59,286 nucleotides of DNA. Source: Catajapyx aquilonaris. Lineage: Eukaryota. This document shows, in pieces, positions 14,001 through 53,179 of this stretch; the first letter of the stretch is position 1; each line of letters begins with the position of its first letter. The notes beneath the pieces are model-generated. The model had not been told where the DNA came from. It was given only the letters and a program-made list of their open reading frames with translations, and made no database searches. Where the stretch lies: positions 1-59,286 of the forward strand of contig JYFJ02002321.1 in the NCBI GenBank assembly GCA_000934665.2, written 5' to 3'. A program made the translations under genes and the position numbers.

Positions 14001-16422
14001 AACTAAATTGCGGATATTGGTGCACTTATCGTTTTCAAGAGTAAGTAATTGATTGTTGAGAAGTTTCGTAAAATAAGCAGTAAAAATAAGACTGTAGGTT
14101 AACTCTTGATTGTATTTTTAGTCAACTTTCATGCAACGCTTGGCCCAATGTAGAAGAGCACAAAGATACAGAGAGAGAGTGAAGACGACATCCAAAGAAA
14201 AAAAAGATGATGCTGCCTGCGAAGACCTAATGCCTGAATAGAGACAGGCAAATGCCGCTGCTTGTCTTTCCCTGGAGGATGCCGCCAGAAATTGAAGGTT
14301 ATTAACATGGTGTGAATATCAACCTTATAATAGACCCACTTTTCCCACACAACTGACGCTTGCTTACTCTTGAAAGTATACAAATTCCCTTCTATGCCCA
14401 GGTTCCTATTGTCCTGAAAATTTATAGTTTGCAAATGTGATACTACACTGTATGATTCTATACATGAATAGAATCCAAGGAGAGTGCAGATCAGATTGAT
14501 GAAATGGATTTGGAGCATCCCCTGCAAAATCATTTACTGCCAGTGAAAACACGCTTCATATGAGACCATGTCAACCTACTTGACGTCTGAAAAATGAGTA
14601 AGTATCACATGTTTTATGTGTATGAGGCATTTTGTAGTGATAGATTAACCTAGATATGCCTGAAAGATTTTTTGTTTAAATTTTGGTTTTTGTTTGTTTT
14701 TATTAGTTCATAATAGTCCCCAAAACACAAGAAAAATGATTGAAAAAAATTGTAAAATCGAAATTGTAAAATCGAAATCGAAATTGTAAAAAGATTGCAA
14801 GAAAAGGGCCGTCCCCTGTAGGGGACACTCGGCATATCTGGGTTAATTGACATTTTTGTAAGAGGGAAACTGTTATGATGCAGCATGTGCAGGGGCTTTT
14901 ACTAACTGTAAGTACCGGTAAGTGATTATGGATAAGTTATGTTTGGTTTGAGGATGTCATAATGAATTCACTAGCAATAGTAGATCATAAAATGTAAGCC
15001 CTTTGCAATGTAAGACAGTGAGATTTTCACTTTTTATACGACAAGATCATAATTAGTAATGGCTTCCATGTAATCTGTGAGATTATGTTACTTGAAATGG
15101 TAACCATCAACAGATTATTATTATTGAAAAGACACCCACTTTCATTATGAACCACTTTCATGTAGTGCAAAATCCCTCTAGCGAAAAAATGAATGCCATT
15201 TATTTGTCCTTTTTTCCTCAGATGGACTTCTCGAAACAGACCCCCTTCTCCTCCTAGGCCGTCCATACATCCTGGAAAAGGAAATAATAACCATTGATTC
15301 ATCGTGCCAGGTGCCCTCAGATGATGGTGGCTTTCTGAAGAAAGCTTTCATTTTGTGCCTCGGCATATATTACAGGTAAAATCTAAGCTATCCCGCCTCT
15401 TCATGATGATGAGCCTGCTTCTACTCATGTTTATCATAGTGCTCATAAATTTTCAAACCAAATGAAACATTGAATTTTTCTACAGGGTGTGTCAGAAGTC
15501 GATATCTAATATTATTTCTGAATAACTTTCCAATGGATACAGTACCTACAGGCTAGATGTGATATTTTTTGTGACTTTGTCATGTACAAATATTGTATAC
15601 ATGACAAGCAATACTTGTGTGATGATATACGTGACGGTACAGGTGATCGGAGTGACTGCGTGGCATGGTACTTGACTGTACATGCGATATTTTTACGACT
15701 TTTTCCACATATTCCATGTATGACACGTACTCCTTCATAGAAACTACAGTTATGTTGTTACTGTCATTTTCAGGGAGATCCACTTGAAGATCCTGGCATA
15801 ACGACGCGCAATGCAGATCTGGTGCAACAAGTGAAGAAGATACTTCCTGTAGGGCAGAATTTCAGCTGCCAGGTTCATCAGAAAAAAGTTACTCGTACAC
15901 CTTACTTACAAATTCACCTGAGTAAATCTTACATTTGCCTAGTCTGCCATAAGAAATTTAATTGTACAAGAAATTTGAACAACCACATGGCGATGCATAG
16001 GGGTGAAAAGCCATACAGTTGTCCTCTATGCCAAAGGAAGTTTAGACAGTCAGGTCATATGAAAAGTCACATTCAAACACACTGATGAGAAACCATTCAT
16101 CTGCGATGTATGTCAGAAATCGTTTCGCGAGAAAAGTAGTTTAAGAGTGCATGAGAGAGTGCACACAGGCGAGAGACCGTATAGTTGCGAAATTTGCAAG
16201 AAAAGTTATACTGGTGCTCGCGCTTTGAGAGTGCATCGAAGATTGCATAAAGAGGAAAGACCGTTTAGTTGCTCAATTTGCCATAAAACTTACAGGTCTA
16301 ACGGCGGGTTAAATTATCATATGAGAACGCATGCAGAGGAGCAAGCTGTCAAAGTGAGCCAGAAAATATACTTTGCTAAAAAAAATGGCATGAGAAATCA
16401 TATGAAAAAATTTGTGGCATAA
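11070..16422 (+). pseudogene. Cassette copy 1: acidic-exon C2H2 zinc finger gene with a frameshift in the finger exon
   Basis: Phase-0 exons 11070-11159, 11213-11377, 11435-11572, 12110-12286, 15774-16422. Clear paralog of the gene at 24237. Apparent 2-bp loss in ACACAC near 16080 gives CAC TGA instead of CAC ACT GAT GAG AAA CCA; fingers continue in another frame (16147-16422 ORF). Could be an assembly error. Confidence 0.75.
12333..15654 (+). mobile_element. CACTA/EnSpm-like element in intron 4, carrying a degenerate multi-exon SAMD3-like ORF
   Basis: CACTC...GAGTG termini with 3-bp ACT duplication (12330-12332, 15655-15657) and subterminal IR gtcacgtatgccatcacac/gtgtgatgatatacgtgac. Internal GT-AG exons encode CxxxxCxCxxF..CQYCGHPPTKH, EYNALGRSIAQRYPHM and AFILCLGIYYR*NLSYP. 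Absent from the paralogous intron at 25348-25746. Confidence 0.7.
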
Positions 16423-22507: not shown

Positions 22508-23827
22508 ATCAATTATCCTTATAGAGAGCCTTGGGAGCCCGTTCGTAAGTCAGTCGGGTTGTTCGTAAACTGGGGGCTTCTTGTATTACATTCTGTGGTA
22601 AAGAATGAATTCCCATGTGACATTTCAAATAGTTTGACTGACTAAAACTTTTCTGGCACACCTAACAAATGAATGGATTTTCTCCCGTATGAGTTTGCAT
22701 GTGTTTCTTCAAAGCCTCTGAACGTCTAAAACTTTTCTGACACACCTCACAAATGAATGGCATTTCTCCCGTATGGATTCGCATGTGTTTCTTCTTAGCC
22801 TCTGAACGTCTAAAACTTTTCTGACACACCTCACAAACGAATGGCTTTTCTCCCGTATGAATTCGCATGTGCAGTTTCAAACTGCATGGATCCCTGACAC
22901 CTTTCTGGCACACGTCACAAATGAATGGCTTTTCTCCCGTATGAGTTCGCATGTGCTTTTTCAACGTCCCTGAACTACTAAAACTCTTCTGACACACCTC
23001 ACATACAAATGAATGGCTTTTCTCCCGTATGTGTTCGCATGTGGGTTTTCAAACTGCCTGAATGGCTCAATCTCTTCTGGCATACCTCACAATGAAATGG
23101 TCTCTCTGCGGTATGACTTCGCATGTGACATTTCAAATGGTTTGACTTATTAAAACTTTTCTGGCAAACATCACAAATGAATTGATTTTCTCCAGTATGA
23201 ATTCGCATGTGCTGTTTCAAACAACTTTGAGTAAGAAATTTGTTCTTGCACACCTCACAGTGAAATGGTCTCTCTCCTGTATGAGTTAGCATGTGAATTT
23301 TCAAATAATTTGTACGCTGCAATGTCTTCAGGCAAATATGGCAACGATGCTTTTCACTGTGAATTTCCAATTCATGCAGAGTACCACACAATTTCTGGCA
23401 TACTCTGCATGCATGTGGATTTCCTGTAGTGCTTCTTTTGTCCTGGGTTCCGCCCTTTCCTACTCCATCGTCAGCAGTCTGTTGCACAATCTGAAACGTG
23501 AATCATCAGTGCACAATTTATATGGCAATTACATCATGATTACATTAATCCTTCTGGATCCAGTTGCTAATGGGTCGTCTTCATCTTTGACCACAGTGGA
23601 TGTTGCCACCACCATCTCTTCCTCCTCCTCCGCGGCCTCCTCCTTGATCTCACGCAGCGTGTCTTCTGTGAAGAGTGTAGCGTCCCCGTGGAAGCATGCC
23701 GGGGTCTCCTCCTTGAGTCGCAGCCTCCAGGTCTCCTCCACCGTCACGTCTCCTTCCTCCAGCTCTCCTCCACCGTCACGTCTCCTTCCTCCAGCTCCTC
23801 CTCCTTCTTCACCACCAACGAGGTCAT
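22508..23827 (-). pseudogene. C2H2 zinc finger pseudogene (acidic first exon + ~9-finger exon)
   Basis: Exon 1 23827-23544 (MTSLVVKKEEE..IKEE..VKDEDDPLA) is broken by a 32-bp tandem duplication (23732-23795). The finger exon from 23490 has HTGEKPF-type linkers, a 4-nt insertion near 23003 and an in-frame TAG at 22662-22664. Confidence 0.85.
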
Positions 23828-24236: not shown

Positions 24237-26682
24237 ATGGCTTCGAGGGTGGTCCAGATGGAAGCTGCGACGGATGGGCAGATGGACTCCCTCCATCTGG
24301 AGACGGTGGGTGGCCTACAAGGTCGGAAGATGGTCTGATCGATATTATATTTGCTCCATTTCTCTCAATTTATTCAGGGCCAGCCTCTGAGTGATGGACC
24401 ACTTCATGTTTATGTTAAAGAGGAAGCTGCTGGACAAGACTGGGAACCGTCCACTTCGGAGGTGCTGAAGGTGGAAGTAAAGGTGGAGCCGGACCTTTCA
24501 TTTCATTGCGATCAGTTCGACGTACACGGTGGGGATCATGTAGGTGATCAACCAGTTGCGCTAGAGCGCAAGGGCATTAATTGAATATTCATACTCTAGA
24601 CCACACCAGAGCTTGACAAGAGTGTCGGACCATTCAAGTTGGATGAGGTGAAGATAGAGGCGGCTGAGGAGGAAGAGGATGTGAATTACGATCCACTTGA
24701 AGTTATCAATTGCATTTCGGTTGGAAATGCAGTTCAAGTGAGTGAACCGCTGTGTTGATCTAATAATGCTGTCAAATTTCATCGGTTTTTACTTACTCGT
24801 AACTCTTGTTGTTCATTATAATTATGTGCACATGGCTTGAGAGGACTGTCATTGACATACCATTTGCACTACATGGGCACGGCCCTTTAAAAATGATCCA
24901 CGGATCATTTTTAAAGGGCCGTGCCCAAAACTGCAGTTTTTCCGTGTGTTAAGTGGCAGTGTTTTGAGTGTAGTTCGTTGGTTTAATGTAATTTTGATGC
25001 CACCTTCAGCAGTGCAAGCCTAGTGGCTGACACATAATTCGTGTTCCGGGAGTGATCACATTCATCTCTATCTCCTCCCTTGTGCAGTTGACCATTATGA
25101 ATGGGTTTTTTTCATGTCGATGTTGTTCCTCATTCCGTAACAGGGATATAATCTTTCCTCTTAATTTTAGGATTCCATGATAGAGCCGCATGTAATTGAG
25201 AGTATGGCTGGAGATAGCTGGGGGCATTTGTCAACCTCTCTGGTATCAGAAGTGGATGAAGAGGAGCAGATGCATGTCAGGAACTTTCTGATGCAACCGA
25301 GGGACACACTCAAACCTGACAAAAGTGACTCCTTGGCAAGTGAAAAGGTGGGTGTAGTGTCATTATAATGTTAGCTGAATAAGTGTATGGGTATAATGTA
25401 TGACGAGCAATGATTTTCATTGAGTATGAAGTACACATGCTGTACGCATGATTCCCCATCATAATATGGTTCAACCGGATTTTATATTTGTGAAATGCTG
25501 TATAGATTTAACCCTGTACCGCACGTTGTGACCCTCATCCATCATTATGGAGTGGTCCTAGTGCACTTGTGCAGGTAATGAACCCAACTGATTTGATTTG
25601 TACATTACATGTAGAGTTTACTGCACAATTATTCATTGATGAGCATCTGTTACTGTTCTAATCTTTTAAGTACTTTCCATTACAAGAGAGGTGAACAATG
25701 TCATTTACTTGAGGAAACTGAAGTTATGTTTTAATTGATCTTTCAGGGAGAGCCACGGAAACCTGATGACATCAATACGCAGAATTCAGACCTGGTGCAA
25801 AGAATCAGGAAGATACTTCCTGAAGGGCATCAGTTTAGTTGTGAAGTTCTTCGTAAAAAATCTAGTCATACACCTTTTTTCCAAATTTATGTGAAAGAAA
25901 AATGCAAAAAAGCCCACTTTTGCGACGTCTGCCATAAAGAATTTAAATCTGCACATAATATGAAACAACATGTGAAAGTTCACACGGGCGAGAAACCATA
26001 TAGTTGCCCAATATGCCAGAGAACATTTACTCACTCGAGTCATGTGAAAAGACACCTACAAACGCACTCAGCGGAGAAACCATTCGGTTGTGATATGTGC
26101 CAGAAATCTTTTCGCGAAGAAAGTAGTTTGAGATTGCATGTGAAAGTACACACAGGCAACAAGCCATATGTTTGCAAAATTTGCAATAAAAGTTACACCC
26201 ACAGAAGTGGTTTATCTGTGCACCGGAGAATGCACACAGGTGAGAAACCTTTCAGTTGCGAATACTGCTTTAAAAAGTTCCCATTGTCAAGTAATTTGAA
26301 AACGCACATTATGAGTATGCACACTAAAACAAAACCTTACAGTTGCCAACTTTGCCCTAGGAAGTTCGCCACACTAGGTTCATTGAATTCTCACATTAAA
26401 GATCACAATGGAGTTAAACGATTCACCTGTGAACATTGCCTGAAGAAGTTCAGCCTTCCAGGTCTTCTGAGAGCTCATATGAGAACTCACACTGAAGAAA
26501 AGCCATTTCATTGCACGGTTTGCGATGAAAGGTTCATTCGTGAAATCAACTTAAATTGGCACATGAACAAGCACACGGGGAAAATGACGTTTAACTGCCA
26601 CGATTGCCATAAAAAGTTTGCTTCCCTCAATTCGTTGGAAGATCACAGACGAATACATCTTGAGGAGAAATTGAGCGTATAG
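24237..26682 (+). CDS. Cassette copy 5: intact acidic-exon C2H2 zinc finger protein, 9 fingers, predicted 493 aa
   Basis: Phase-0 exons 24237-24305, 24378-24539, 24600-24737, 25171-25347, 25747-26682; no stops; HTGEKP-type linkers. Confidence 0.88.
24874..24927. repeat. Perfect 26-bp-arm palindrome in intron
   Basis: tgggcacggccctttaaaaatgatcc-ac-ggatcatttttaaagggccgtgccca. Confidence 0.9.
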
Positions 26683-28005: not shown

Positions 28006-30540
28006 AGGTGAAATTGTGCCACTGTTGTTTTATGTCATTTCATTGATTTTCATGTGTTGCAGTGACGGGAAGAGTTTACCAGAAGAAGATCGATGGGAGG
28101 CCTTATAAAAACTGGTCAGAAGACACTTTAGAACTGGCTTTAGAAGAAATCAAGGCTAAAAAGATCTCGCTTCGGGAAGCAGCGGTTAAGTAAGTGCAGG
28201 TTAAATGCTTTCCTTTTTGTTTTGACTTACAAAATATGAGCATGTTTGTTATGTATTTCGATTGTAGTGTAACATTTGCCACTTCTTCTGTAGTGTTTAT
28301 GTGACCAATTTGGTGTCTTTTCTCCAGATATGGAATCCACCGAAATACTCTAAACAACAGACTACATGGGCGATGTACAAGGAAGACAGGTGGGCAGACA
28401 GCACTTTCAGCTGACGAGGAGAAGATAATTGTGTCACATGTGATCACATTATCAACTTTCGGCTTCCCTGTTACTGCTCTTGATCTGCGCTTATTCATAA
28501 AATCTTACCTTACAAGGATAGATCGTACAGTAAAACAGTTTAACAACAACTTACCTGGAAAGGAATGGGCTACTCTGTTTCTCAAGAGGCATGAAAAAGA
28601 ATTAACCGCTAGAGTGCCTCAGGTCATTTCGCGCTCACGAGCTGCTCTTGATAGCACATATATCGATGACTTTTTTGATGTTATTGTGAAGGAGCTTGAG
28701 GGAATCCCCCCTGATAACATTTGGAACTATGATGAGTCCAATCTTCAGGACAATCCTGGCTTAAAGAAATTTATAGTGAAGAGGGGTGTTAAACATCCTG
28801 AAATGATAAAAAACTCCACAAAAGTGTCAATGTCCGTCATGATGTGTGGGAATGCAGCAGGAAGTTTGGCTCCCCTTTACGTTACCTATCAGGCAGAGAG
28901 TTTGTACAACTGCTGGATGGAAGGCGGGCCTCCGGGAACACGTTATAACCGATCAAGAAGCGGTTGGTTTGACGCTGCAGTGTTTGAAGATTGGTTTGAG
29001 TTCCTATTGCTGCCGATTTTGAAGAAACAGACCGGCCAAAAGGTGTTGGTCGGGGACAATCTAAGCTCCCACCTTAACTATCATGTGATTTCCCTTTGCC
29101 ATGAGAATAACGTAAAGTTTATAGCCCTTCCACCTCACTCAACGTGTTTGCAACCACTGGGTGTGGCCTTTTCTCGCCACATGAAAGGGGCATGGAAGTC
29201 TATTTTGACACGATGGAAGAAAACAGACGAAGGAATTAAAAAGCCGACCCTTCCCAAGACTGTATTCCCTCGTTTGCTAAATGATTTGATGGTGAAGTTG
29301 CTAGACAGAAGTTCTGCAAATTTGATATATGGATTCCAAACTTGTGGAATTTATCCGCAGGATCGAACAGTTATTCAAAATAAACTGTGCAACAGTGTCA
29401 GTGAATCATCAGGTAACCACGTTCAAAATGTAAGTGAGGCTTTTTTGGATGAAATGAGCAGAAAAACCTGCTCAACACTAGGGAGGAAAAGGAAAAAAGT
29501 GAATGTGCCGCCAGGTAAAGGCATTACAGCCGAAGATGTAGCACCACTATCATCTGAACAATCTCAACCCTCCACTTCGAAGAAGAGCAACTCTAAAAAA
29601 CATCCACCGACAGGAAAAGACACTAGGAAGAAGAAAAAGCATTTGAACCACTTTGAAGACTTTTCAGATGATGAGTTTGAGTTCCCATGTGCGGATGTGG
29701 GTGCACTAATGAATTTCCTGCAAGATGACGTTGGGGATCCACCAGCAGTTGAGAATGGATAACACCTCCAACCCATGAGTGCCATTGAAGAACTTAAACC
29801 AAACCATGGCCAACAGGAATGAACCAACTTACCAGTGGAGCAAGGACTGATGGACAGTGATATCGGTATTACCGAAGAACCAACAGTTGCTGTCTAATAT
29901 GGCGGATGTTTGTACAGTATTCAGGAAATTTTTTGACAATATTGGATGAGACAGGTGAGGCCAACTATTTCGGACGGACACACACACAAAAAAAGGGAAA
30001 ATACATAAAAGATCTAGTGAAAAGGAATATAATTCCATTTTTAAAAAGTGGTAGTAACGTCCTCATAGTAGGCATGAACCCAGCATGAACCATTAGATTT
30101 CAAAGTTTTGCTGACTTTTTTGCATTTAATTTTTACCCATGTAGCCATCTTCATAGGTTTCCACAATTTCTATTGCCTTCAGTTAGTAGCATTGTTAATA
30201 TTTCGTTTCAAATTGTTGTCAGTTCCTATATTTTGTTCTCGTACCATTGTCCGTTCCGTAAAGGTTGTTAAAAGTTTATTTCATTGTTGATTCCTTAATA
30301 AAATTAAATGAAGTGTCTTGAATTATTATCATTGTCGTACCGGTCGTACTACCTATCCTCAATATTTTAAAACAATATTTTTTTCTTCTTCGTATTTTTC
30401 TTTAACAATTTTTTTTTCATGCTGATGATGCTCATTTTTTCTACAGGAAGACTGGTGAGAATGTGCCAAAAACGCAATTTCTCTTCATTTCAAGCTAGTC
30501 TGGCACAATCTCACCCCACTCGATGGGATGATGTGCTACA
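28006..30540 (+). mobile_element. Truncated pogo-like transposon body
   Basis: Subterminal-type motif gtga(a/g)a(t/a)tgtgcca at ~28008 and ~30455, and inverted (tggcacaatctcac) at 30501; TA|CAGGAAGACTGGTGAGAATGTGCCA end-like fragment at ~30444. No intact TIR pair found, so boundaries are approximate. Confidence 0.55.
28063..29762 (+). CDS. pogo/Tigger-family (HTH_psq + CENP-B HTH + DDE_1) transposase, own start lost, catalytic Asp mutated
   Basis: Exon 28063-28189 (ACG in place of ATG, GRVYQKK..YKNWSEDTLELALEEIKAKKISLREAAVK); intron GTAAGT..TCTCCAG; exon 28328-29762 (YGIHRNTL, FGFP, PGKEW, WNYDES, LVGDNLSSH, and LQPLGVAF where QPLDV is expected). Confidence 0.9.
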
Positions 30541-30802: not shown

Positions 30803-32605
30803 ATGGATGCTGAGCCGGTGCAGGAGGATGCCTTGCTTCATCCGAAAGCGGAAATCAAGATGGAGGAGGAAGAACTGTATGATTATGATCAGCTGGGCCT
30901 AGGAGGTGGAACTGAATCAGATGATCAAGATCAGGTGGGACTGTCTGTTGCGCTGAAGAGCTGCAATTATTGAGTGTCATAAATTTTTTATTCTAGCCCA
31001 TGCAAAGTCATGATCTGATGCTACCGTCACCAGCACACAGCGGGACGGACTTAGATGAGGTGAAGATTGAAGTTCGGGAAGAGGAGGAAGAGCTGATATG
31101 TGATGATCCGCTGAATGTTGACTATTGTAATCAGGTTCAGGTGAGTGCATCACAAGGAGAAGGGGAAGAGAGAAGGAGTCGTAAAGGACTTGGGTCACTG
31201 TAATGCCTTTTGAGAAATCAGTATGTTATGAAATTATGCCATATATTCAATTTGACAGAAAGTTGTTGTACAGTACCTGATACATCAAATTTCTGGAGAT
31301 TAAAAAGGGAGCATGGTGGCCATTTTAAAAATGTGACCATAAAGTAGCATAATAATTGCTGAGGCACATCATTTACCGCCAAAAGCGAAAACACAGTAAC
31401 TCCGTAGAAAAGGAGTGAGACTAAAGCTGCGTTTACATGTGAGCAATTTGACGAGTGAAATCTTCGCCGAGGCTGATTTTCGCCTCAAATTGGCTGAGAT
31501 TTTGCTCGTCAAATCGCTCACATGTAAATAGAGCTTTAGTCTCATTGCTTGCCTATGGAGTTACTCTCTTTCGCTTTTTGCGGCAGACATGTACTCGTCT
31601 GTTCAATGTATCCCGGAGTCCTAATGAACTCCCCTCCTTGTGCTGGGGCACGGCACTGACCTTGGTTCCCAGCCATGAATCATCATTTAACACTGCCTGT
31701 ATCAAAATGTCAATGATGAGCTTCGATTCATCTTTAAGGGTGCACAACAGCAAGCTGATGAGAATTTGAAGAAGACAGTCCATGTGCAAATAAGCAGGAG
31801 AGAGTCTACTCAGCCAGATAATTTGAAGGAAGGTCTGCAGCCACACACAGTGGAGAAGCGCTTTAAAAAATGTAGTCAAGCATGTGAAGTTGAAATTCAT
31901 ATGATAACACATGCTGCGGAAAAACCATTTAGTTGTCATTATTGCCAGGAAAAATTTAACCAGGAAGGTGATATGAAAACTCACATGAGGACGCACACTG
32001 AGGAAAAACCATTTAGTTGCCCTCTTTGCAATAAAAAATTTAGTCGACCACACGATGTTAAAATTCATATGAGAACGCATACTGGGGAAAAACCATATAG
32101 TTGTTATATTTGTCAGAAGAAATTTAGCCACACTGGTAATATGAATATCCACATGAAAACACATACTGGGGAAAAGCCATTTAGTTGTCACTTTTGCCGG
32201 AAAAAATTTATCCAGGAGGCTCACATGAAAGCTCACCTGACGACGCACACTGGGGAAAAACCGTATAGTTGTCATTTTTGCCAGAAAAGATTTAGTCAAG
32301 AAAAAGGTGTTAAAACTCACCTGAGAACCCACACTGGGGAAAAACCATATAGTTGTCACCTTTGCAATAAAAAATTTAGCCAGATTGGTCATGTGAAATC
32401 TCACCTGAAGATACATACTGGGGAAAAACCATTTAGTTGTCATGTTTGCCAGAAAAGATTTACTGAAGAAAATAGTATTAAGACTCACATGAGAACCCAT
32501 ACTGGAGAAAAACCATATACTTGTCACCTTTGCAATAAAAAATTTAGCCAGCTAGGTCATGCGAAAGCTCACCTGAAGACACATACTGAGGAAAAAAACA
32601 TGTAG
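30803..32605 (+). CDS. Cassette copy 7: intact acidic-exon C2H2 zinc finger protein, 8 fingers, predicted 380 aa
   Basis: Phase-0 exons 30803-30934, 30997-31140, 31739-32605; highly homogeneous HTGEKP(F/Y)SCHxC repeats. Confidence 0.9.
31425..31535. mobile_element. Harbinger-like MITE in intron (related copy at ~11597-11735)
   Basis: agctgcgtttacatgtgagcaatttgacgag / ctcgtcaaatcgctcacatgtaaatagagct termini, flanked by TAA/TTA. Confidence 0.7.
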
Positions 32606-34032: not shown

Positions 34033-36718
<2,686 letters not shown>

Positions 36719-37858: not shown

Positions 37859-40739
37859 ATGTCATCTAAAATTCCATCTGCCAATGGGAAGGCCACGTGC
37901 TGGGAGGAGCTGGACCTGATGTCGGTTGTTGAACTCTCGCTTCAAGGAAGGTACTGTAAACCGAACGAAATTTATTGCTTTTTTATTTTTGAAAAATTCG
38001 GTTTTAGAGGTCGGTTTTTTTTATATCGCACTCGTGATCTAGACGCAACGTACTGTGTTATTGTGGTCTCGTGAATGTTACGGCAACAGTGACATAACAG
38101 TTAAAGCCCACGCAAACAGATTTTTGTGTGTGAATTGGTCAAATATTTACAACATCGATCTATAATTATTAAGCAAGAGTCAAATACATTCTGATATTGC
38201 TTGCTGGATGAGATTTGTGTACGTTGATGTGTTCATTTAAGAGTGGGAATTGCCTCCTATTTTCATTACGCATATTTTCAATTACGTATTAATTGTTTGT
38301 AAAAAAAAAGAGTGGAAATGGTGTCTCGTTGCGACCAATGAGCTCTCGTCGTTTTTTTTGTTTGTTTGAAAAATGTACTAAAGTTGTGAGGTATAATTTT
38401 CATGTCTTTTTGCACATTTTTGTCCGGAAAGTACACTTACTCATCAATAGTCTTTTTTTGTCACTGTGATTTTATTAGAATGGAAGGGAATCAGGGGGAA
38501 AACCACCCAACAGCTGTGCAGACGTTTGACCCAAAATTCTTTAGCCTATATTTGTGTCACTGCAGGAACCTCCTGGACATGGACGTGTTCTCAAAGTCCG
38601 ATCCTGTGTGCATAGTGTACCACCAGCCTTTCGGACAGACCCAATGGAAGGAGCTGACAAGGACCGAGTGCATCATCAACACGCTGAACCCCGATTGGCA
38701 GACCAAGGTGACCATCACATACCGGTTTGAGGAGCTGCAGATTCTCAAGTTCGACCTGTACGACTTGGACAGCGACAGTCCGGACCTGTCCCGACACGAC
38801 TTCCTGGGTACGGCCGAGTGTACCCTGAGCCGCATGGTGACCGCTGGAGTGCTGGTCCTGCAGCTGAAGAACCCGAAGCTGGGGTTGTACGACGGTGCGG
38901 CCGGTTCGTTGGTCATTACCTGCGAGGAGATGGGTTCGTCCAAGGATGACGTGGAGCTCAGGTTTGCCGGACGAGGCATCGACCAAAAGGAGGTGTCCTG
39001 CTGGGGGTCGTCGGTCAGTCCCTTCCTGGCCATACTCAAAGGGAACGAGTCCAGCCAGTACACCCTGGTCAGGCGAACCGACCCGGCCAAACGGAGCTGC
39101 AATCCAAACTGGAAGATGATGACCATACCGGTACGAAGCCTGTGCAACGGAGACTACGAGCGGCCTCTGAAGGTCGAGTGTTACCACTGGAAACGAAACG
39201 GAAACCACCGGTACATCGGAGAGTTCCACGTCACCCTCTTGCGTCTCGCACTCGGACCTGGATCCAACAACATCTTCCACGTCGTTGATCCAAAGAAACA
39301 GGTTCGTTATCAGCATAATAAATAAATAAATGGGCTCTTTCTACAGAATAATTGGTACACGAATGGAAATTCACACCAACAGCAACAAGTGGAAAGTAAT
39401 TTTTTTCCTAATAGGCTTATTCTCTCCGTCGGATGTTTGTCCGACCTGCTAGTATCGCTATTTCTCGCACGACCTGAGAGTGGCGGGAGTGTGCGCCATC
39501 TGTGACTGTAGAACTGTACTACGTGGTAAATCGGCGGGCCATCTCATTAAATTGGTTAATTGTCACTGTGATACTGATTATTATAGGTTTTGCCCAATTT
39601 TGGCAACAGGTTTATGATATGCCAGTTGACTTATTATTTTGTGCTTCCAGGGTAAATCAGGGTACACCCACTCGGGCGTGGTGCACCTGACGCACTTCAA
39701 TCTGCAGCCCAAGTACTCTTTCTTGGATTACGTCAGAGGCGGTACACAGATCAACTGCACCTTTGCCATCGATTTTACATGTTAGTGACTGACATCTTTT
39801 CTTCCTAGCAGGGAGACATTTTGCTGATAACTGATCTGTGTTGTTGTTTATCAGCATCGAATGGCGACCCGTTGGACCCAGCATCGTTGCATTACATCCA
39901 CCCTACCTTGCTGAACACATACGAGAAGGCCCTGTGCGCTGTAGGTGAGATCATCCAGGACTACGATTCGGACAAGCTCTTCCCGGTGCTTGGGTTCGGT
40001 GCCCGGATACCACCGGACGGACGGGTGAACCACGAGTTCTTCGTCAACATGAACCCGGAGTCTCCATACTGCGACAGGATCCAAGGAGTTCTCAAGGCCT
40101 ACAGACTCTGCATCAGGCAGATCAAGCTGCACGGGCCTACAAACTTCTCTCCAGTCATAAACCATGTGTCCAGGATAGCGTCCAACGTCACAGACGGATC
40201 AGAGTACTTCATACTGCTCATCATAACCGACGGCATCATCAACGACATGGAGATGACCAAGGAGGTACAGTACATACACATGATGTAGCAGGTCATTTTG
40301 CCATAGAACGTACGGCTCTGTTTCTGTCCGTTCGTGACCGGTACACATTTTGCACGAAAATATTTACTTCGTTATACAAGAGTAAAAACTCTGTAATTTC
40401 CAGGCCATAGTGAAGGCATCGGTGCTTCCACTGTCCATCATCATAATCGGAGTCGGCAGCACGGATTTTACGGCCATGGAAGAGCTGGACGGAGACATTG
40501 TGCCCATTTCGTACAGGGGAAAGAAAGTGGCCCGAGACATAGTTCAGTTCGTGCCCTTCCGAAACTTCGAGCAGAACTACGAAGGTCAAGCGGTCAGGCG
40601 TCGGCTGGCCAAAGAGGTGCTGCAGGAGATACCTGACCAGTTCCTCAGCTACATGAAGTCCATGAACATCAAGCCCAAACCACCTACATACAAGCCGGTC
40701 GTGCTGCCCCCTGACCCGGAGGTCATCGTGCTCGGGTGA
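37859..40739 (+). CDS. Copine (C2A-C2B-vWA), predicted 567 aa
   Basis: Exons 37859-37950, 38566-39301, 39651-39780, 39855-40264, 40404-40739 join in frame. Motifs VELSLQGRNLLDMDVFSKSDP, YSFLDYVRGG..AIDFTSSNGDP, DYDSDKLFPVLGFGA, GPTNFSPVI, ITDG, RDIVQFVPF. Confidence 0.95.
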
Positions 40740-45845: not shown

Positions 45846-48706
45846 CTATTTAGGCAGTAGTGGCTCCAATGGGATATACAGGTCTCTGCACAAGGTGGAA
45901 TACGACATTGGCATTTGCTTCCCACCATCCTGTGATCTGCAGGAAGATCTTGCCTCATAGTCCAAGGCAATTGTTCGAACCACTTGGGTCATCACTTGTT
46001 GGTACTCGAGACCACTGGATCTCCTCATGATGGAGCACAGGGCCTGGATGAAGACGGAACCTCCTCCTTCATCTCTAAATGAGCGGTATCCAAGCATTGT
46101 AGCAAATGTGACGTGCAAGTCTGGTTGCGTGAATTGCAAGATGGTGCCATTATAGCCGGCTGTGGTGGACAAAGGACCAATATCATGTGGCTCAGGAAAC
46201 TGGGAGGTCTCATAGGTTGGTTGGAAATCAACGTTGCCATGTGCTACCAACTGTCCCTGGTCTACAGCACTTCCGCGACAAGCCTGCGTAAAAAAGAGAA
46301 GCCTTATTTCATCATCATCAGCAAGACACTGTAAAAGTAGGGTAACTCTGTGATATAAATTCTACACAGGTAATGCATAACATGGAGTGTAAGTAGACTT
46401 CTCTTACATGATAAGCCTCTCTCTAATCCTTTCAAATGCCTTGCAGGACATCACTTACCTGGATTAAGAATAGCTTGGGTTTCCCTGCTAGCGTTGGGCA
46501 GAGATGATCCGCAAATGGCACCCAGAGCTCCTCCGGCCTGTACACTCCGTCACTAGCACAGAGCCAGTCTTCTGCACCATGTGTAAGGACAACCACTACT
46601 AGCAAGTCATAGGACGAATGGTCATCGAGCGACTCTGTGGGTGACGAGGAATATGTGGCATGTGAGTAAACGAGCCACTGAACTTCATTGTGCTTCCAAG
46701 CTCGTAACGCAGCACCTTCTAATGCCACCCACTGCCCAAACGTGATAACTTGGGGAAGTAAGGTGCAGCGTTATCATCTCTATATATAAGAGCAATACCT
46801 GTCAGAAGTGCATCTGAGATCCATTCACGGTCCATGTTGTTAAGGATTTGTATGTTCATTCTCATGCTCTTGAATAGCTTTTGTAATGCGACCACATCTG
46901 CTCTTGATTCTCGCTGATCAAAAGTGTTGTTGATGATCAGAGCCTTTCCTCTCCTCTTGCCCGGGGCTAGGTCTCTCATATGGTAGGGAGAGAAGTCGAG
47001 GCATTTGTCTTCCCTCTGAGCACTTTCTTTTTCCACTATTGGTGCCTTTGTATTGTTTCTGGACCTGTCTGCATAAGCATATAGACATTATGTTATGCCC
47101 TTGTTGGACTAGTTCTGCATTTATTAGCACCAGTAATGCTTTAAGTTGCACATAATTGTGACGGATTGTAGACAACTATAATACCTCGAATTGGCCCAGT
47201 AATGTGTCGCCTGCCTTTATTGTTTAATTTTATTGTTGAAAGTCACTTGTTGCCATTGGGGCATCAGTACCAAAGTACTGTTGACGCTATTATAAACAGC
47301 TTTTGGTCACTAAACTGCATGCATTTACATTTTTATTGGGCCTCTTATCCTTTTGTGTTCTGGAGGCAGGTACAATAGGAAAGTCTTTTTCGCTAGGAGG
47401 ACAGTGGCACTAATTCAAGTACGTATATTTCACAGGTCATCAGTAGCGACTCACTTTTCTTCTGGCGAGAATTGCTCGATGTTGACAACAGGCACAGCCT
47501 CTTCCACACAGAAACATTTCGACGCTCTGGATGAACCACCTGTTAATGAGTAATGAGTAAGTTGAGTTTAAATATAGTTAAGTCCGTCAAGAAGCAGCAG
47601 ATGAAAACATACACAAGAAGTACCTTGCATGCATCCAGATTCTAGTAAGAGATTTGCACAAATAGTAATCACACACAAGAACACTTGGGTAATTAATTTC
47701 ATCTTCATTTAATTTTTTTTGCAGGGAGAAATGTCTCAAAAGCAATACAAGGAAAGAGTAGGAAAGAAAATAGAGCTCTAATTTGTATAACAATAACTTC
47801 ACCTTGTGTTCTTGTGTTGTGATTTGACTTGTGTTTTCTGGTTCCATGCAGTATTTTTCTATGGACACTGCTGTATTTGTCACGACCAACTCTTCTGTAT
47901 TGTTTGGTTACCGGGCATATGTGAGGTGAGGTGAGGGAGGGCATAAATGACGGATGATAATTTTTGTAAAGGGGCCAATATAGCAGTTTGCGTCATGCCC
48001 ACATTTGATATGTTATCGCCATAGCAAACTGAAACTGGGCTATGTCGCACTTTTTTGAAATACTGTGCAACATCTGGTGTAGACTTTGAACACTTTTTAT
48101 TCGTGGGATTATTTTGAAGGTCATAATAAGTTACTCAAATAAATTAGGGTGTGCATGCAAGTGTGACTTGCAAAGAAGGGGCACTGTTTTTCAAAAGCCT
48201 TTCACTATGACCCACTCTGGTCAACTTTGGAACCTTCTCCCATGATTGTATTATTTGCCAGAAAATATTTAATGGCCTACTACTTGAATTTTTAATCAGT
48301 TTTTTGTGGTTCATTTTGAGAGTCACTGATATATAGGGAGACAGTTATACTGGTATTTTCCAGATAATTCTACCTTATCATCATGATAATAACTAGCGAA
48401 ATATGTTCTCGGTATTGGACTAGTGGAATGTTAATGGTTTTCCCCATATGCGTACATAGACAGTATTGGACATAAGGCCATTTATTTTTTGTAGGCTATT
48501 ATATCCAACAGCACTGGCTATGCCTGCAAGTAAATCACTACCTTAATAACAGCTACTTATCTGGTATAATATGCTAATAGTTCATCCACTGTGTTATCAG
48601 GACTTGATTAATGTACAAAGGAAAGTGAAAATATCGTTTGAATTATTTAAAAGTAATATCATGTATCTAGAGTTGAATATGATCTTACCTCGGCCTTACT
48701 AGTCAT
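45846..48706 (-). CDS. Short-prodomain caspase A, catalytic dyad intact, predicted 328 aa
   Basis: Exons 48706-48689, 47539-47455, 47068-46799, 46634-46459, 46283-45846 join in frame. Motifs RRGKALIINN, VLTHG, LAGKPKLFLIQ|ACRG, SFR..GSVFIQALC, KQMP..STL. The first two exons are less certain. Confidence 0.88.
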
Positions 48707-49667
48707 GATGGGATCCACAGCCAAACAAGCTGTTATCAGGAGTAGGCCTGAACTTTAAGCTTCTTTGACATGTGATAAGTTTAATCATTGGGGTTAGCAA
48801 TATCTTCTAATTTATAATTTTAGCAATCTAGCTATACTTAATTTATAATACAGTGTGACTGAAATTTTGATATTTAAAATGCACTAGTTAAGAACATCAG
48901 AAGTAGTATGTGCAGATTAATTCAGTTTGAGAAACCTTGTGTTCCAGGAATTGGGTCTGGCGTAGTTATCATAGCGATAGTGAGATTAGATATATTTGAA
49001 GGAGAGTTCATATTGATTCAACTTTATCAGTTACTGCCAGGTGGCATGAGAAGGTTAAAAAATTCATGTCAATTTTTCAAAGCGATGCACCATAAGTAGG
49101 ATTTTTGTGTAGCATACATTGAAAGCCAAAACAATCTCCCAGGTTCACATCTCATTAGTCAAAGAGTTATCCTGATGCCTCAATGTGAACTTTACGCCCC
49201 AACTTGTCGTCACCAGCAGAGGTCTCTGAAAGCTATGCGAATGGAGGGTCTGGGTGTGACGAAAAGTTTGCAGATTGCGTGTCGTTAGTCTAGTGGCGAT
49301 AGTGGCAGCTTCTATACTAGCAGGTGGAATACTACCATCCACATTTCGAGTGATTGAGACTGAATTTTAAGAAAACCCTTAGTGGAATAATCCTGGCCAA
49401 CCAAATTCACAAGAATTTAATGCCTCATTGTTCAACATGGTTCATCTTTTGAAAGAGAAGCCTAGAGTTTAGAATCATCGTAATTGGTGTAAAGTACCTC
49501 ATCAAGTGAGTTTCTTGGGTTTGTTTGCTTCTGTAGATATATGACATGCAATAACATCATTCGTAGTTTTTATGGTGTACAGTTTATATTTGAATGGAGC
49601 AAAAATAAAAATGCAAATTTACCTTTTGATTTGCCATTTCAGAGCTGCCATTTGTCAAGAGGACAGC

Positions 49668-50955
49668 ATGAGCAAGAACCATGAGGCAAGCAGCAAAGGC
49701 AGTGCTGGCGGAGGAGAAGATAGGTGGGGTTGCAAAGGAATCTTAATTTTTGTTCTTGTCAAAGACCATCTGCATGCTAACAATATGCCTACTTACAGTT
49801 AGCCTGCAATTTGTCTGAATTTGGGTTGATGCAAAATCAGATCTAAAGATGTTGACTGAGGCATTTAATCTTATTATACCAATTGTTGTCAATGATAAGC
49901 GTATTTGACATTGCACCATTTTAAAATATAAATAATGGGTGATTATTGTTTTAGATTTTAATTTGTGTGGATTCCTGATAAGTTGTATTACAAGCAGTGA
50001 CTCTTACTTCAGTGTTGATGGTGGTCAAAATATTCAGCATGTGCCAGGGACTATAAATTCAGACAAGTATGACATGCCTGGGCATCGCAAGGGGCGTGTA
50101 CTAATACTGTGCAAGAGGGACAGTGCTGGTCGCCTTGCATGCCAACTGGAAATAAGACTGAAGCGTCTGGGATTTAAAGTCAAGGTGTGCCACGACTTGT
50201 CAGCAGCGAAAGTGAAAGAAATGGTTGAAAATTGTGAGTTGGAACATGTGACTTCACATTAATTTCATAATCATTTAGTTTTTTTTTCTGATTGATTTTT
50301 TGTTCATATGTTACAGTGTCTAGGAAGGACTTCAGGAAATGGGGGTGTGTGCTTGTGGCAGTATTAACTTCAGGGAGGGGTGAGCATCTTCGTGCCAGCG
50401 ACTGTTCGTACAAACCATCCATTCTGTGGGATCCGTTCCTGCCTGGCAACTGTCCCTCGCTTACTGGAAAGCCAAAATTATTCCTGATATGTGTGAGTCT
50501 GAAATGTAAGTGTTGGGGCTAATTTTTCTTAGTATTAAATATTGTTTGTTTACAGACTCTTCAAGAAAATGTGCCCTGTGATGCAGTGGATGGCAGGAAC
50601 AGCCGCATCTCTAACGGCACTATTGAGTGTAAGCTGCCGACACACGCTGACTTCATGACGCTTTATTCAGCCAACTTAGGTAAGAACCTTTCACTTTATT
50701 CAAATGCCAGCGTCATTGTTATCATACTTGTTTTGGGTCACATCAGATGACAAACGCTGGTCTTGGCCAGTGAAGGCCTTGTGCATGCTTCTTGGTTACA
50801 ACCAGATGTCCCAAGAGGAAGACCTGCTGAGCATGCTGTCGGTTGCACAACGTATGATGGATCACTGGGCCGCAGGCAGTGGCACTACTCCGGCTGTGCC
50901 ATTCTGTGTGAGCTCCATGCTCACTAGGGATTTGGTTTTCGCTAAGAGCAGATAG
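49668..50955 (+). CDS. Catalytically inactive caspase homolog (pseudo-caspase B), predicted 261 aa
   Basis: Exons 49668-49723, 50013-50233, 50317-50492, 50556-50679, 50747-50955 join without stops. Fold motifs YDM..RKGRVLI, LGFKV, CPSLTGKPKLFLI, LPTHADF and SMLTRDLVF are kept, but THG is TSG and QACRG is CTLQE. Confidence 0.85.
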
Positions 50956-51498
50956 GGGTAAAAAACAAAAAGGACTCGGAATTTTTCTGCACTCACTCCC
51001 TCACTAATGAATATTTGGCCTTGGAACTTTACCTATATTTACAGTATTAAATTTTTTGCTCAGTGCAGAAAGGTCAAAATCATACTTTTTTCTGGTATCT
51101 TTGGCAAGAAGGAGACGGCCAAAGTGTGCTCCACGAAGCTTCTCCAAGCGATTCTCGAACTCCAGTCTAGACTCCACACAAAGTTCAGGCGTACCTGTAC
51201 ACTAATAAATAATGACTATACTTCCTGCACATATTCATTTATTCGATTCATTTACTTTGATGCCATTTTCATTCCAGTCCTTTCTCTTGAAAAATTATCA
51301 AATAATAAACGGCATATGAAAAGTTGGACATGGAAATCACAGGTGCAAGTGTCTGACTTTTTTTTTGTGAACCTGGTTCAGCTGGGATTGAAAGAAGACG
51401 AGAAATTACTTTTACAGTAACTGAGCAGCGTTAGGGAAGTGACAAATTTTCTGAATATTAATGTGGCAAAAAAGCTACTTGTCCTTGCTTCCCTGAGT

Positions 51499-53179
51499 TT
51501 ACTTGAGCTTTGTTGGATCAAAGATTTTGTTCACAGGCACACACAGCTTCTTCTTGAGGGTTGAGAATGAGTTACACATTTGTTTTTCCCCCGTTGCATT
51601 CTCATACTCGATGGCCACTTTACGTTTCACCACCGTCATCAGCTTCTGATAGTCACTTCCATTTGGAGCTTCACCAAACACACGACAGAAGGTCTGCACA
51701 AAAATTGAGCCAGTGTTTGGATCCCTGTAGGACACACAGTTATATGTGGTGGAGTGTGCTACGTGCACATCTGGTTGAGTCAGGCGACCAACCACGTCGT
51801 GTGAGATGTCAGGCGCAGGATTCTTCCTGAAGTGAGGAGTATAATGTGAGAACTGCTCATACCTCAAGTGCAGGTTATGACATTCATATTGAACAATGAG
51901 AAGTGGTTCAACTATATTTAACACAATTTCTCAACAGAATTGCTGAGCAGATGAATCATGTATTTTGAATGCACGGCCCTTACCTTGTGTCCTGAGAGTT
52001 GCCATGAGGAGCTGATGATGTACTGTCACCCTGCATGCTTCCATTGTTTGCGGTGAAAGAAACAGGCTGACCCTGATCATGTTGTTCACCACGACATGCC
52101 TGAAATTTTGTAGTGCATAAGTAATGCAACGTGGATCACTTTATGAAGTCCTGTAATCAAACTGTCATTTCAGCCTGCGGACATACACACCTGAAGAATA
52201 AAAAGTTTTGGAGTCCCTGCCAGAGTTGGACATAAGTTGTCAGCGAAGGGAGCCCACAGCTCTTGTGGGTTGTATGGATGGTCCCAAGCCTGCAGCTTAT
52301 CTTCCATGCCATGAGTCAGGACCACAACCACCAACAGGTCATAGGAAGAGTGCTCCTTGGTTGTCACAGCAACTAGATCAAGAGGTCATCATTATGAAAG
52401 TGTACTGTTATGGCTGCTTTACTTTGATTTCGGACCCTTTGTGAGTTCCTACCATGTGATTTGTCCCTGGTGGAAAGCCACTCTAAAAGTTTCTGAACTC
52501 ACCAGTCCTCAGCTCATTCTTAATGCTTGCATAGGTTCTGTCTCTTAGGCGATCATTGACAGATAGACCCATGCGTTGAAACAGATTCTTGAGAGCTGCC
52601 ACATCCTGTTCAGTTCCATGACGTACTTTTAACTCTGGGTTTGGATGATATTTGAAAGTGAAGTTGAAGATGAGTGCTTTTCCCCTCCTCTTGGACCATG
52701 GCTGAAGATCTCTCATCGAGTAAGCTGAGGGTTCACTCATAATGGACTGAAGGACTGGGTCATTGCGTAATTCTTCATCCAGTTCATCTTCCGACACATC
52801 TCCTAGTAGAAATTATAAGCAGGGTATGCAGTAAAGTCAACATCTGACACTTCATATATGTTATTTCATGGTATTTGCCAGCATTATGTAGGAGCATGGT
52901 TTTCGCATGCTTTTATTGCTAGTCACCACCTTCGAAGCAGGTCAATCTTCTTAATGACCGGCGAAATGAAGAGGTTCGTGAAAATGAGCTTTCCATCTGT
53001 ACGCCTCTTCCTGTAAAGTTCAATTACAGAACACTCATATTGGGGCATGTGGTGGGATGGATGGATGGATTGGACTTAGTGATCTAAGAAGTGTATTAAG
53101 GGCTATAGTGCAATAGTTATAACTAACATCATATGCAGAAAAATATTGCAGTGATTGAGTCGGTACCTGTAATTTTCAT
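51499..53179 (-). CDS. Short-prodomain caspase C, catalytic dyad intact, predicted 339 aa
   Basis: Exons 53179-53167, 53010-52930, 52802-52503, 52372-52191, 52099-51984, 51826-51499 join in frame. Motifs RRGKALIFN..RHGTEQD, VLTHG, LAGTPKLFILQ|ACRG, SYRDPNTGSIFVQ, KQMC..STLKKKL. Confidence 0.9.

What the first reader, a model, noticed from the sequence alone, without database searches (positions are those of the whole stretch)
49668..50955. Intact pseudo-caspase with two DxVD/G sites, wedged between two catalytically intact caspases
Seen: the five-exon ORF is fully open. The catalytic His (THG to TSG) and Cys (QACRG to CTLQE) are both lost, and the R-x-G-T and S-W/Y/F-R substrate-pocket segments are not recognisable. 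Yet DSVD/G (end of prodomain) and DAVD/G (inter-subunit linker) are present. It lies head-to-head with caspase A (~1 kb between start codons) and tail-to-tail with caspase C, and shares the 176-nt core exon size with A. Established: DxxD/G is the effector-caspase cleavage consensus, and inactive paralogs (c-FLIP, nematode CSP-2/CSP-3, insect caspase-like decoys) regulate caspases. Inference: a co-regulated decoy, bait or heterodimer partner forming a local caspase-regulator module.
Basis: partly seen in the sequence, partly recalled or inferred. Interest (0 to 1): 0.75.

Follow-up and report, generated by a model that had tools for sequence, protein, structure and literature searches.

The report
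Expressed pseudo-caspase between two caspase genes
A spliced, transcribed arthropod gene encodes a caspase look-alike that keeps the enzyme's structural core but has lost its catalytic and substrate-binding parts; such likely caspase regulators are already known from insects.

Summary
The gene is real. Five GT-AG exons (49668-50955, +) give an open 266-aa frame. Spliced contigs of run X1 join two of its four introns and run to a poly(A) signal. The catalytic His is Ser. QACRG is CTLQE, anchored by an intron shared with caspases A and C. DAVD|G lies in the linker, but the reported DSVD/G does not exist: the sequence is DSDSYFSVD|G. The S1 Arg of R-x-G-T is in fact kept.

B keeps 63 of 71 conserved core columns, as many as active caspases, but only 5 of 29 conserved active-site-loop columns. 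This points to selection on the fold, not on catalysis.

Its nearest relatives are arthropod caspase-1/Drice-like effectors, at most 33% identical. No orthologue was found. Ten of 42 related arthropod proteins also lack His or Cys, so dead paralogs are common.

Whether B arose from the A/C lineage is unresolved.

Most likely B is a non-catalytic partner or regulator of active caspases, like Aedes CASPS18. Binding, cleavage and co-regulation were not tested. It is a new member of a known kind, of modest interest.

The parts
49668..49723 (+). B exon 1: ATG (A at -3) and 18 codons plus 2 nt of the short N-terminal region.
   Evidence: Gene model, with GT donor at 49724. No RNA contig was reported over this exon or intron 1, so the start is predicted only. 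An acceptor-like pyrimidine tract plus AG ends at 49642, which hints at an untranslated upstream exon.
49998..50233 (+). B exon 2: end of the short prodomain (…SYFSVD|GG…) and the first part of the p20-like region. The S1 Arg is kept (KRDSAG). About 11 residues of the loop before it are missing.
   Evidence: The RNA joint 50233->50317 (GT..AG) confirms the donor. Pfam finds no CARD or DED here: 0 families at E<=1.
50317..50492 (+). B exon 3: the 176-nt core exon (…CVLVAVLTSG…GKPKLFLIC), with Ser in place of the catalytic His.
   Evidence: Pfam Peptidase_C14 E 2.7e-4, 21.1 bits against a cut-off of 21.4. Best PDB matches are Spodoptera caspase-1 (1m72/2nn3, E 3e-10) and chains 3sip/3sir. Depth arithmetic places an RNA contig at about 50317-50425, which includes the Ser codon 50370-50372, and no differing letters were reported.
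50556..50679 (+). B exon 4: TLQE in place of ACRG, the linker with DAVD|G, and the start of the p10-like part (KLPTHADFMTLYSANL).
   Evidence: The joint 50679->50747 is confirmed by an RNA contig (listed as 50677->50745, cut +2). No contig was reported across intron 3 (50493-50555).
50747..50955 (+). B exon 5: p10-like helices and the C-terminal strand VPFCVSSMLTRDLVF. The SWR loop is absent and the following loop is shortened. Stop TAG at 50953-50955.
   Evidence: RNA contig record 3 covers 50745-51228 without differences.
50956..51228 (+). B 3' UTR with AATAAA at 51204-51209. The RNA contig ends at 51228.
45846..48706 (-). Caspase A, 328 aa. Exons 45846-46283, 46459-46634, 46799-47068, 47455-47539 and 48689-48706. 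LTHG, QACRG and SFR are present.
   Evidence: All four introns are joined by RNA contigs. Splice dinucleotides, translations. The p10 part matches caspase-3/7 (E 5e-13).
48707..49667 (.). 961-bp divergent intergenic region between the A and B start codons (GC 0.37). It may act as a shared promoter.
   Evidence: Shared regulation is inferred from the arrangement only.
51499..53179 (-). Caspase C, 339 aa. Exons 51499-51826, 51984-52099, 52191-52372, 52503-52802, 52930-53010 and 53167 to about 53179. LTHG, QACRG, RHGT and SYR are present.
   Evidence: Five introns are joined by RNA contigs. The poly(A) signal on the minus strand is at 51243-51238.

Best explanation
B is a real, transcribed, selectively maintained pseudo-caspase. 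It is a short-prodomain member of the arthropod effector (caspase-1/Drice-like) caspase family.

It keeps the caspase core and the C-terminal strand. From recalled caspase-3/7 structures, that strand forms the dimer interface. B cannot cut or even hold a substrate:
- His is replaced by Ser and Cys by Leu.
- The Gln and the second Arg of the S1 pocket are gone.
- The loops that build the substrate groove are deleted or rewritten.

The most likely mode of action is as a non-catalytic dimer partner that changes the activity or activation of an active effector caspase. Candidates are its neighbours A and C. This is what the Aedes decoy CASPS18 does for CASPS19. The linker site DAVD|G could let an active caspase process B like a normal zymogen.

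Shown here: the gene model, splicing and transcription, loss of the catalytic apparatus, and scaffold conservation. Inferred: dimerisation, the identity of the partner, cleavage, and the direction of the effect.
For: - Open five-exon frame with canonical splice sites. Stops per frame are 0/14/17 forward and 8/7/14 reverse. 0 of 20000 shuffles were open. 3.9% of point substitutions would create a stop.
- Exon GC is 0.50 against intron GC of 0.27-0.37.
- Contigs of run X1 join 50233->50317 and 50679->50747 and cover exon 5 up to 19 nt past an AATAAA. The same run joins all 4 introns of A and 5 of C, so it behaves as RNA.
- B matches 63 of 71 conserved core columns. A matches 64, C matches 61, and the mean of 34 active rows is 87%.
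- B matches only 5 of 29 conserved active-site-loop columns. A matches 24 and C matches 26. Fisher p = 9e-12.
- All five residues of QACRG are changed (>= 8 nucleotide changes by my count from the codons), yet the other 261 codons stay open.
- The C-terminal strand is nearly identical to that of the active relative P0101 and aligns to the caspase-6/7 p10.
- Precedent: decoys are described as inactive duplicated caspases that regulate other caspases (passages in PMC7768685 and PMC3141678). CASPS18 is described as an enhancer of CASPS19 with a similar expression profile (passage in PMC4840389).
Against: - No orthologue was found, so there is no dN/dS and no test of conservation across species.
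- Transcript evidence comes from one small run of unrecorded kind. It covers 2 of 4 introns. Exon 1, intron 1, intron 3 and the CTLQE codons are not shown in RNA.
- I drew the core/loop column classes from recalled caspase anatomy after I had seen B's alignment.
- No binding, fold or complex prediction could be made, because the spliced protein cannot be handed to those tools.
- B is only 27-28% identical to A and C, so a specific fit to them is not evident.
- B sits on a long branch (2.4 against a median of 1.1), which also fits partial relaxation.
- Recalled knowledge: the neo-N-termini after FSVD|G or DAVD|G start with Gly, which is not the Ala typical of IAP-binding motifs.
Confidence: 0.5

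Rival explanations
1. B is a decoy substrate or bait. It acts mainly as a competing substrate, cleaved at DAVD|G (and perhaps FSVD|G), that soaks up active effector caspases or their inhibitors. It does not act as a dimer partner.
For: - DAVD|G lies in the linker, roughly where relatives carry their large/small-subunit cleavage Asp.
- Only 2.7% of shuffles place a DxxD[GSA] in that 30-residue window.
- P4 Asp is the effector-caspase preference (recalled knowledge).
Against: - There is only one DxxD|small site.
- A stoichiometric substrate sink would not need 63 of 71 core columns and the C-terminal strand conserved.
- A linker Asp followed by a small residue is inherited from the family.
- The neo-N-termini begin with Gly, not the Ala usual for IAP-binding motifs (recalled knowledge).
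Confidence: 0.15
2. B is a neofunctionalised scaffold. It keeps the caspase fold for a job unrelated to caspase regulation, for example binding another protein through the remodelled groove.
For: - The scaffold is conserved while every groove loop is rewritten or shortened.
- B is very distant from all known caspases, at most 33% identical.
- No evidence ties it functionally to A or C.
- Dead caspase-1-like paralogs are frequent and lineage-specific: 10 of 42 representatives. P0062 is itself an orphan. This could reflect varied new uses.
Against: - The one functionally studied arthropod case that I could see cited acts on a paralogous caspase (passages in PMC4840389 and PMC7768685).
- The strand that makes caspase dimers (recalled knowledge) is the best-kept segment.
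- B sits between two caspase genes.
Confidence: 0.2
3. B is a transcribed relic: a dead duplicate that is still spliced and transcribed from the divergent promoter shared with A but has no selected function.
For: - The catalytic apparatus is lost, the branch is long, and no orthologue was found.
- The transcript evidence is thin: one run and short contigs.
Against: - 266 codons stay open across four introns, while 0 of 20000 shuffles are open and the other frames hold 7-17 stops.
- The indels relative to the family are all in frame.
- Core columns are kept at the level of active enzymes: 63 of 71.
- Exon and intron composition still contrast sharply.
- Only a very recent death would fit. That is hard to square with five of five QACRG residues changed and three loops removed.
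Confidence: 0.1

Closest known systems
Aedes aegypti CASPS18, the caspase-like decoy of CASPS19 (Bryant et al. 2010). The original paper, PMC2902568, is not held. I saw it only as cited in passages of PMC3141678, PMC7768685 and PMC4840389.
   Same: Both are arthropod, short-prodomain, effector-type caspase homologs without the catalytic Cys. Both lie in a genome that also holds active paralogs. CASPS18 is said to regulate (enhance) a paralogous caspase and to share its expression profile.
   Different: - CASPS18 is called a Decay homolog (PMC4840389). B's placement among caspase-1/Drice-like proteins is unresolved.
- By my recollection CASPS18 has substitutions at two critical positions. B has lost far more: the dyad, two of three S1 residues and three loops.
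- No activity, binding or co-expression data exist for B.
Unstudied dead caspase-1-like paralogs of insects. Examples: Apis mellifera 'caspase-1 isoform X1' cluster (P0079), Achroia grisella (P0112), Blattella germanica (P0139), Aquatica leii (P0024), Schistocerca nitens (P0076) and Condylostylus longicornis (P0135).
   Same: They belong to the same family and the same kind of loss. 10 of 42 representatives lack His and/or Cys at the aligned columns (names). Several also lose loop columns while keeping core columns.
   Different: None is an orthologue of B: best identity is 29-33%. Their grouping with B in the tree (88/62) joins long branches and may be an artefact. Each seems lineage-specific: P0062's best relative is 36-39% identical.
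Vertebrate c-FLIP(L), the pseudo-caspase partner of caspase-8 (abstract of PMC7586951 seen in a search listing).
   Same: Both are catalytically dead caspase-like domains. c-FLIP(L) works by heterodimerising with an active paralog, can activate or inhibit it, and is encoded beside its paralogs (the last point is recalled).
   Different: FLIP has tandem death-effector domains and belongs to the initiator (caspase-8/10) lineage. B has a prodomain of about 40 residues with no Pfam domain and effector-type relatives.
Caenorhabditis elegans CSP-2 and CSP-3 (recalled, no call).
   Same: They are inactive caspase homologs that restrain CED-3 autoactivation by binding its zymogen.
   Different: As I recall, CSP-3 is essentially a small-subunit-only protein. 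B has both p20-like and p10-like halves.

Membership tests
Caspase fold / Peptidase C14 (Pfam PF00656) | Significant sequence homology to the caspase domain across p20 and p10. | tested here: met
   The spliced B (joined only inside scripts) aligns to active caspase P0101 over 257 residues: 33.5% identity, blastp E 4e-36 against the 150 fetched representatives. Exons 2, 3 and 5 each align to solved caspases.
Caspase fold / Peptidase C14 (Pfam PF00656) | Pfam gathering score reached. | tested here: inconclusive
   Only single exons could be submitted. Exon 3 scores 21.1 bits against a cut-off of 21.4. Exons 2, 4 and 5 give no hit at E<=1.
Active caspase (enzyme) | Catalytic His-Cys dyad (xxHG and QACxG). 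| tested here: not met
   The dyad columns hold Ser and Leu (VLTSG; CTLQE), anchored by the shared intron position. No alternative exon with QACxG exists in 48800-51500.
Active caspase (enzyme) | S1 pocket of Arg (RxGT), Gln (QACxG) and Arg (SWR), plus the groove loops. The residue roles are recalled. | tested here: not met
   The first Arg is kept. Gln became Cys. The SWR segment is deleted. B matches 5 of 29 conserved loop columns.
Caspase-like decoy / pseudo-caspase (functional class) | Caspase homolog lacking catalytic residues but otherwise intact and expressed. | tested here: met
   Open 266-aa frame. Two introns are joined in RNA-like contigs and the 3' end is covered. 63 of 71 core columns are kept.
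Caspase-like decoy / pseudo-caspase (functional class) | Arose by duplication of an active caspase paralog. | tested here: inconclusive
   B is adjacent to A and C and shares the two introns around the core exon. The careful tree puts B elsewhere (88/62, long branches). The AU test does not reject an A+B+C clade (p 0.54).
Caspase-like decoy / pseudo-caspase (functional class) | Binds and regulates an active caspase. | not testable with these tools
   The spliced protein cannot be given to the fold or complex tools. No experiment was possible.
c-FLIP family | Tandem death-effector domains before the caspase-like domain. | tested here: not met
   About 40 residues precede the caspase core. Pfam finds nothing in exon 2 at E<=1.

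The most novel reading that the evidence does not exclude
B is a FLIP-like switch for effector caspases rather than initiator caspases, in a non-insect arthropod. It would be transcribed from a divergent promoter shared with caspase A. It would cap A or C as a half-dead heterodimer through its conserved C-terminal strand, and be cut by them at DAVD|G. The three-gene cluster would then be a self-contained feedback module that sets the threshold of executioner activity.
Probability: 0.2. Interest if true: 0.55.

Novelty: new member of a known kind. Interest (0 to 1): 0.35.

Why it matters
Dead caspase paralogs are one of the few known ways to tune caspases at the protein level. Only one arthropod case has been studied functionally: CASPS18, which I saw only through citing passages.

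This locus offers a compact, experimentally tractable example. A pseudo-caspase has an intact scaffold and a fully dismantled active site, and it is flanked by two candidate partners.

The tally of 10 of 42 related arthropod proteins lacking His or Cys suggests such paralogs arise again and again, yet are annotated simply as 'caspase-1'. That matters for counting functional caspases in arthropod genomes.

By itself the finding does not overturn anything.

Tried and rejected
- Whole-genome search: no genome is held for this window.
- Word-based protein search with B exon 2 and with A's last exon, both with 'longer' lengths: nothing. The proteome of this organism and its close kin is evidently not in that collection, so the blank says nothing about B.
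- Exhaustive HMMER search with B exon 3: 357 hits at E<=1e-3. None is above 59% identity and none is an orthologue.
- Third word-based search, with the dead relative P0062: P0062 is itself an orphan, and no family links it to B.
- Metagenome scans with exon 2 (none) and exon 3 (two loci). Both loci are short chance matches of 25 and 37 residues.
- The look-up of sequencing runs: no RNA holder is listed. The one holder, X1, is of unrecorded kind. I call it RNA-like only because its contigs carry 12 joints at GT..AG or CT..AC borders.
- Parts of B without reported cover: 49505-50038, intron 3 and the CTLQE codons. I take these as no evidence either way.
- Depth was not used to compare expression of A, B and C.
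- The quick tree seemed to exclude B from the A/C lineage. The AU test did not uphold this, so I dropped the claim that B is not a local duplicate.
- Pairwise dN/dS among A, B and C was not attempted: 27-28% protein identity means saturated synonymous sites.
- Earlier findings of this scan: nothing to show.
- Bryant et al. 2010 (PMC2902568) is not held. What I say of it comes from citing passages and from recall.
- One literature search was badly framed and gave only general arthropod papers.
- Structure and complex prediction were not run. The full protein exists only as joined exons, and single exons would not be meaningful.

Full report
WHAT IS THERE

The window is eukaryotic and no genome is held for it. 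At 45.8-53.2 kb it carries three caspase-family genes and no others (six-frame motif scan and tblastn). The finding is the middle gene, B.

B's exons are 49668-49723, 49998-50233, 50317-50492, 50556-50679 and 50747-50955. All introns are GT-AG, and the 801-nt CDS gives 266 residues.

The open frame is not chance:
- The other two forward frames of the CDS hold 14 and 17 stops, and the reverse frames hold 8, 7 and 14.
- Composition predicts 13.8 stops.
- 0 of 20000 shuffles were open.
- Exons are 50% GC and the four introns are 27-37% GC.

TRANSCRIPT EVIDENCE

The one public run that holds the region, X1, has no recorded kind. When laid, its contigs carry 12 joints at GT..AG or CT..AC borders across the three genes, so it behaves as RNA.

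For B:
- The contigs join 50233->50317 and 50679->50747 (listed as 50677->50745, cut +2).
- One 505-nt contig runs from exon 5 to 51228. That is 19 nt beyond an AATAAA at 51204-51209.
- By depth arithmetic the first contig spans about 50141-50233 plus 50317-50425. This includes the Ser codon that replaces the catalytic His, and no differing letters were reported.
- Exon 1, intron 1, intron 3 and the CTLQE codons are not covered by any reported contig. I draw nothing from that.

The same joints define A and C:
- A, minus strand: exons 45846-46283, 46459-46634, 46799-47068, 47455-47539 and 48689-48706; 328 aa.
- C, minus strand: exons 51499-51826, 51984-52099, 52191-52372, 52503-52802, 52930-53010 and 53167 to about 53179; 339 aa.
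- The A and B start codons are 962 bp apart, head to head.
- The B and C stops are 543 bp apart. Their poly(A) signals face each other within 40 bp.

Correct:
- His to Ser (VLTSG).
- QACRG to CTLQE. This alignment is fixed by a phase-0 intron at the same place in all three genes.
- The S-W/F/Y-R segment is deleted.
- DAVD|G lies at residues 165-169 in the linker.
- The core exon is 176 nt in both A and B; it is 182 nt in C.

Wrong or overstated:
- There is no DSVD/G. The sequence is E-D-S-D-S-Y-F-S-V-D|G, so P4 is Phe. The only other DxxD is DKYD|M.
- The Arg of R-x-G-T is retained. B's RDSAGRLACQLE aligns with RNGTDKDRDNLE of reconstructed effector caspases in the PDB, and the Arg falls in the family's R column.

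No alternative exon could restore QACxG: a loose motif scan of all six frames of 48800-51500 gave three hits, none in a caspase context, and one of them is antisense inside exon 2.

FAMILY AND RELATIVES

Exon 3 matches Pfam Peptidase_C14 just under the cut-off, 21.1 against 21.4 bits. Its best solved relatives are Spodoptera caspase-1 (1m72/2nn3, E 3e-10) and chains 3sip/3sir, which I recall as Drosophila DrICE.

A full HMMER scan of 1.84 billion representatives with exon 3 gave 357 hits at E<=1e-3, none above 59% identity. Against the 150 listed hits, the spliced B (joined only in scripts) is closest to P0101, an unnamed active caspase. Identity is 33.5% over 257 residues, E 4e-36.

Every named relative I looked up is an arthropod caspase-1/Drice-like protein. 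They come from Gryllus, Cloeon, Anabrus, Mythimna, Carabus, Bombus, a millipede, a mite and a springtail. A zf-AD zinc-finger gene elsewhere in the window fits an arthropod.

No orthologue of B turned up in the protein collections or in two metagenome scans.

IS IT MAINTAINED?

I aligned A, B and C with 42 of the 150 representatives. These were the ones 225-420 aa long. The other 108, fragments or fused multi-domain predictions, were dropped. I took the 100 columns that are conserved by residue group in at least 70% of the 34 rows with both His and Cys.

I split these columns by recalled caspase anatomy into 29 active-site-loop columns and 71 core columns. The loop class covers the loop before and around the first Arg, the His turn, QACxG plus the linker, the SWR loop, and the last loop.

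Results:

| Row | Core columns (of 71) | Loop columns (of 29) |
|---|---|---|
| B | 63 | 5 |
| A | 64 | 24 |
| C | 61 | 26 |
| Mean of 34 active rows | 87% | 86% |

Fisher p for B is 9e-12.

The C-terminal strand VPFCVSSMLTRDLVF is almost the same as in P0101 (IPCITSMLTRDLVF). I recall this strand as the dimer interface of caspase-3/7.

A sequence drifting without constraint long enough to change all five QACRG residues and lose three loops would not keep 261 other codons open, every indel in frame, and its core at the level of working enzymes. I conclude that the fold is under selection and catalysis is not.

Caveats:
- I drew the column classes after seeing the alignment.
- There is no cross-species test.

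ORIGIN

A and C are 45.5% identical and are sisters (100/95 in the careful tree). B is 27-28% identical to each.

The careful tree places B with four other dead caspases at 88/62. These are all long branches and the tool warns about such joins.

An AU test does not reject a clade of A+B+C: p = 0.54, and the constrained tree was 3.7 log-likelihood units better than the quick free tree.

So B may be an old local duplicate that branched before the A/C split, or a separate lineage. The data do not say which.

HOW COMMON IS THIS?

In the same 42 representatives, 10 lack His and/or Cys at the aligned columns. Six have names:
- Apis mellifera 'caspase-1 isoform X1'
- Achroia grisella
- Blattella germanica
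- Aquatica leii
- Schistocerca nitens
- Condylostylus longicornis

The set is biased by having been fished with B's exon 3, and single-column misalignment could misclassify a few. The dead relative P0062 is itself an orphan: its best match is 36-39% identical. Dead caspase-1-like paralogs thus look frequent, lineage-specific and fast-evolving.

MECHANISM

The groove is dismantled, so substrate trapping is unlikely. The core and the C-terminal strand are kept. The best reading is therefore a non-catalytic dimer partner that modulates an active effector caspase.

This is the role the literature gives to caspase-like decoys. They are described as inactive duplicated caspases that regulate other caspases, found in several insects (passage in PMC7768685; also PMC3141678). 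Aedes CASPS18 is described as a decoy that enhances CASPS19 and shares its expression profile (passage in PMC4840389). The original paper is not held.

DAVD|G could allow processing like a normal zymogen, or use as a competing substrate. Only 2.7% of shuffles place such a site in the linker window, but a linker Asp followed by a small residue is ancestral.

That A or C is the partner, and that A and B are co-regulated from the 961-bp divergent region, rests on arrangement alone.

VERDICT

The errors are one invented cleavage site and one overlooked retained Arg.

The gene is a genuine, expressed, scaffold-conserved pseudo-caspase. It belongs functionally with the known caspase-like decoys, but it is not a member of the FLIP family (no DEDs) and not an orthologue of any named decoy.

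It is a new member of a known kind. Interest is modest, and it would rise if heterodimers with A or C and a regulatory effect were shown.

Noticed in passing
window 51204-51243: The B and C genes converge so closely that their poly(A) signals face each other within 40 bp: AATAAA on + at 51204-51209 and on - at 51243-51238. B's RNA contig ends at 51228, so the two 3' ends probably abut or overlap by a few bases.
   Followed up: partly
window 46238-46530 and 45976-46033: Run X1 holds a second spliced contig over caspase A. It has 7 differing letters (46238-46530) and the same intron (joint 46283->46459, depth 3.9). A much deeper contig (depth about 184) matches only about 45976-46033 and then runs on as unlike sequence. 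These may be an allele or a close paralog of A, and a more abundant transcript sharing a short stretch.
   Followed up: no
window 28305-29759 (+): A single 485-aa open frame with a DDE_1 endonuclease domain (E 1e-15). It is probably a pogo/Tigger-type transposase and possibly intact.
   Followed up: no
window 8314-9141 (-), 15741-16419 (+), 22665-23502 (-), 25735-26679 (+), 31691-32602 (+): A cluster of C2H2 zinc-finger genes. One has an N-terminal zf-AD domain (E 1.4e-5, below the Pfam cut-off), a domain typical of arthropods.
   Followed up: no
window 5019-6974 (-): A 652-aa intronless open frame with a ligand-gated ion channel domain (Lig_chan, E 6e-10). It is probably an ionotropic (IR-type) receptor.
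   Followed up: no
window 38390-40736 (+) and 35214-35537 (-): A copine gene (C2 plus Copine domains over three long exons) and a fibrinogen C-terminal domain exon lie upstream of the caspase cluster.
   Followed up: no
window 46799-47068 (caspase A exon 3): Caspase A, although it has the His-Cys dyad, departs from the family at the R-x-G-T segment (QRESRAD, one residue shorter). It matches 24 of 29 conserved loop columns, so its specificity or activity may be atypical.
   Followed up: partly
window 49600-49667: A pyrimidine-rich tract ending in AG at 49642, just upstream of B's ATG, looks like a splice acceptor. B may therefore have an untranslated first exon nearer to A's start.
   Followed up: no
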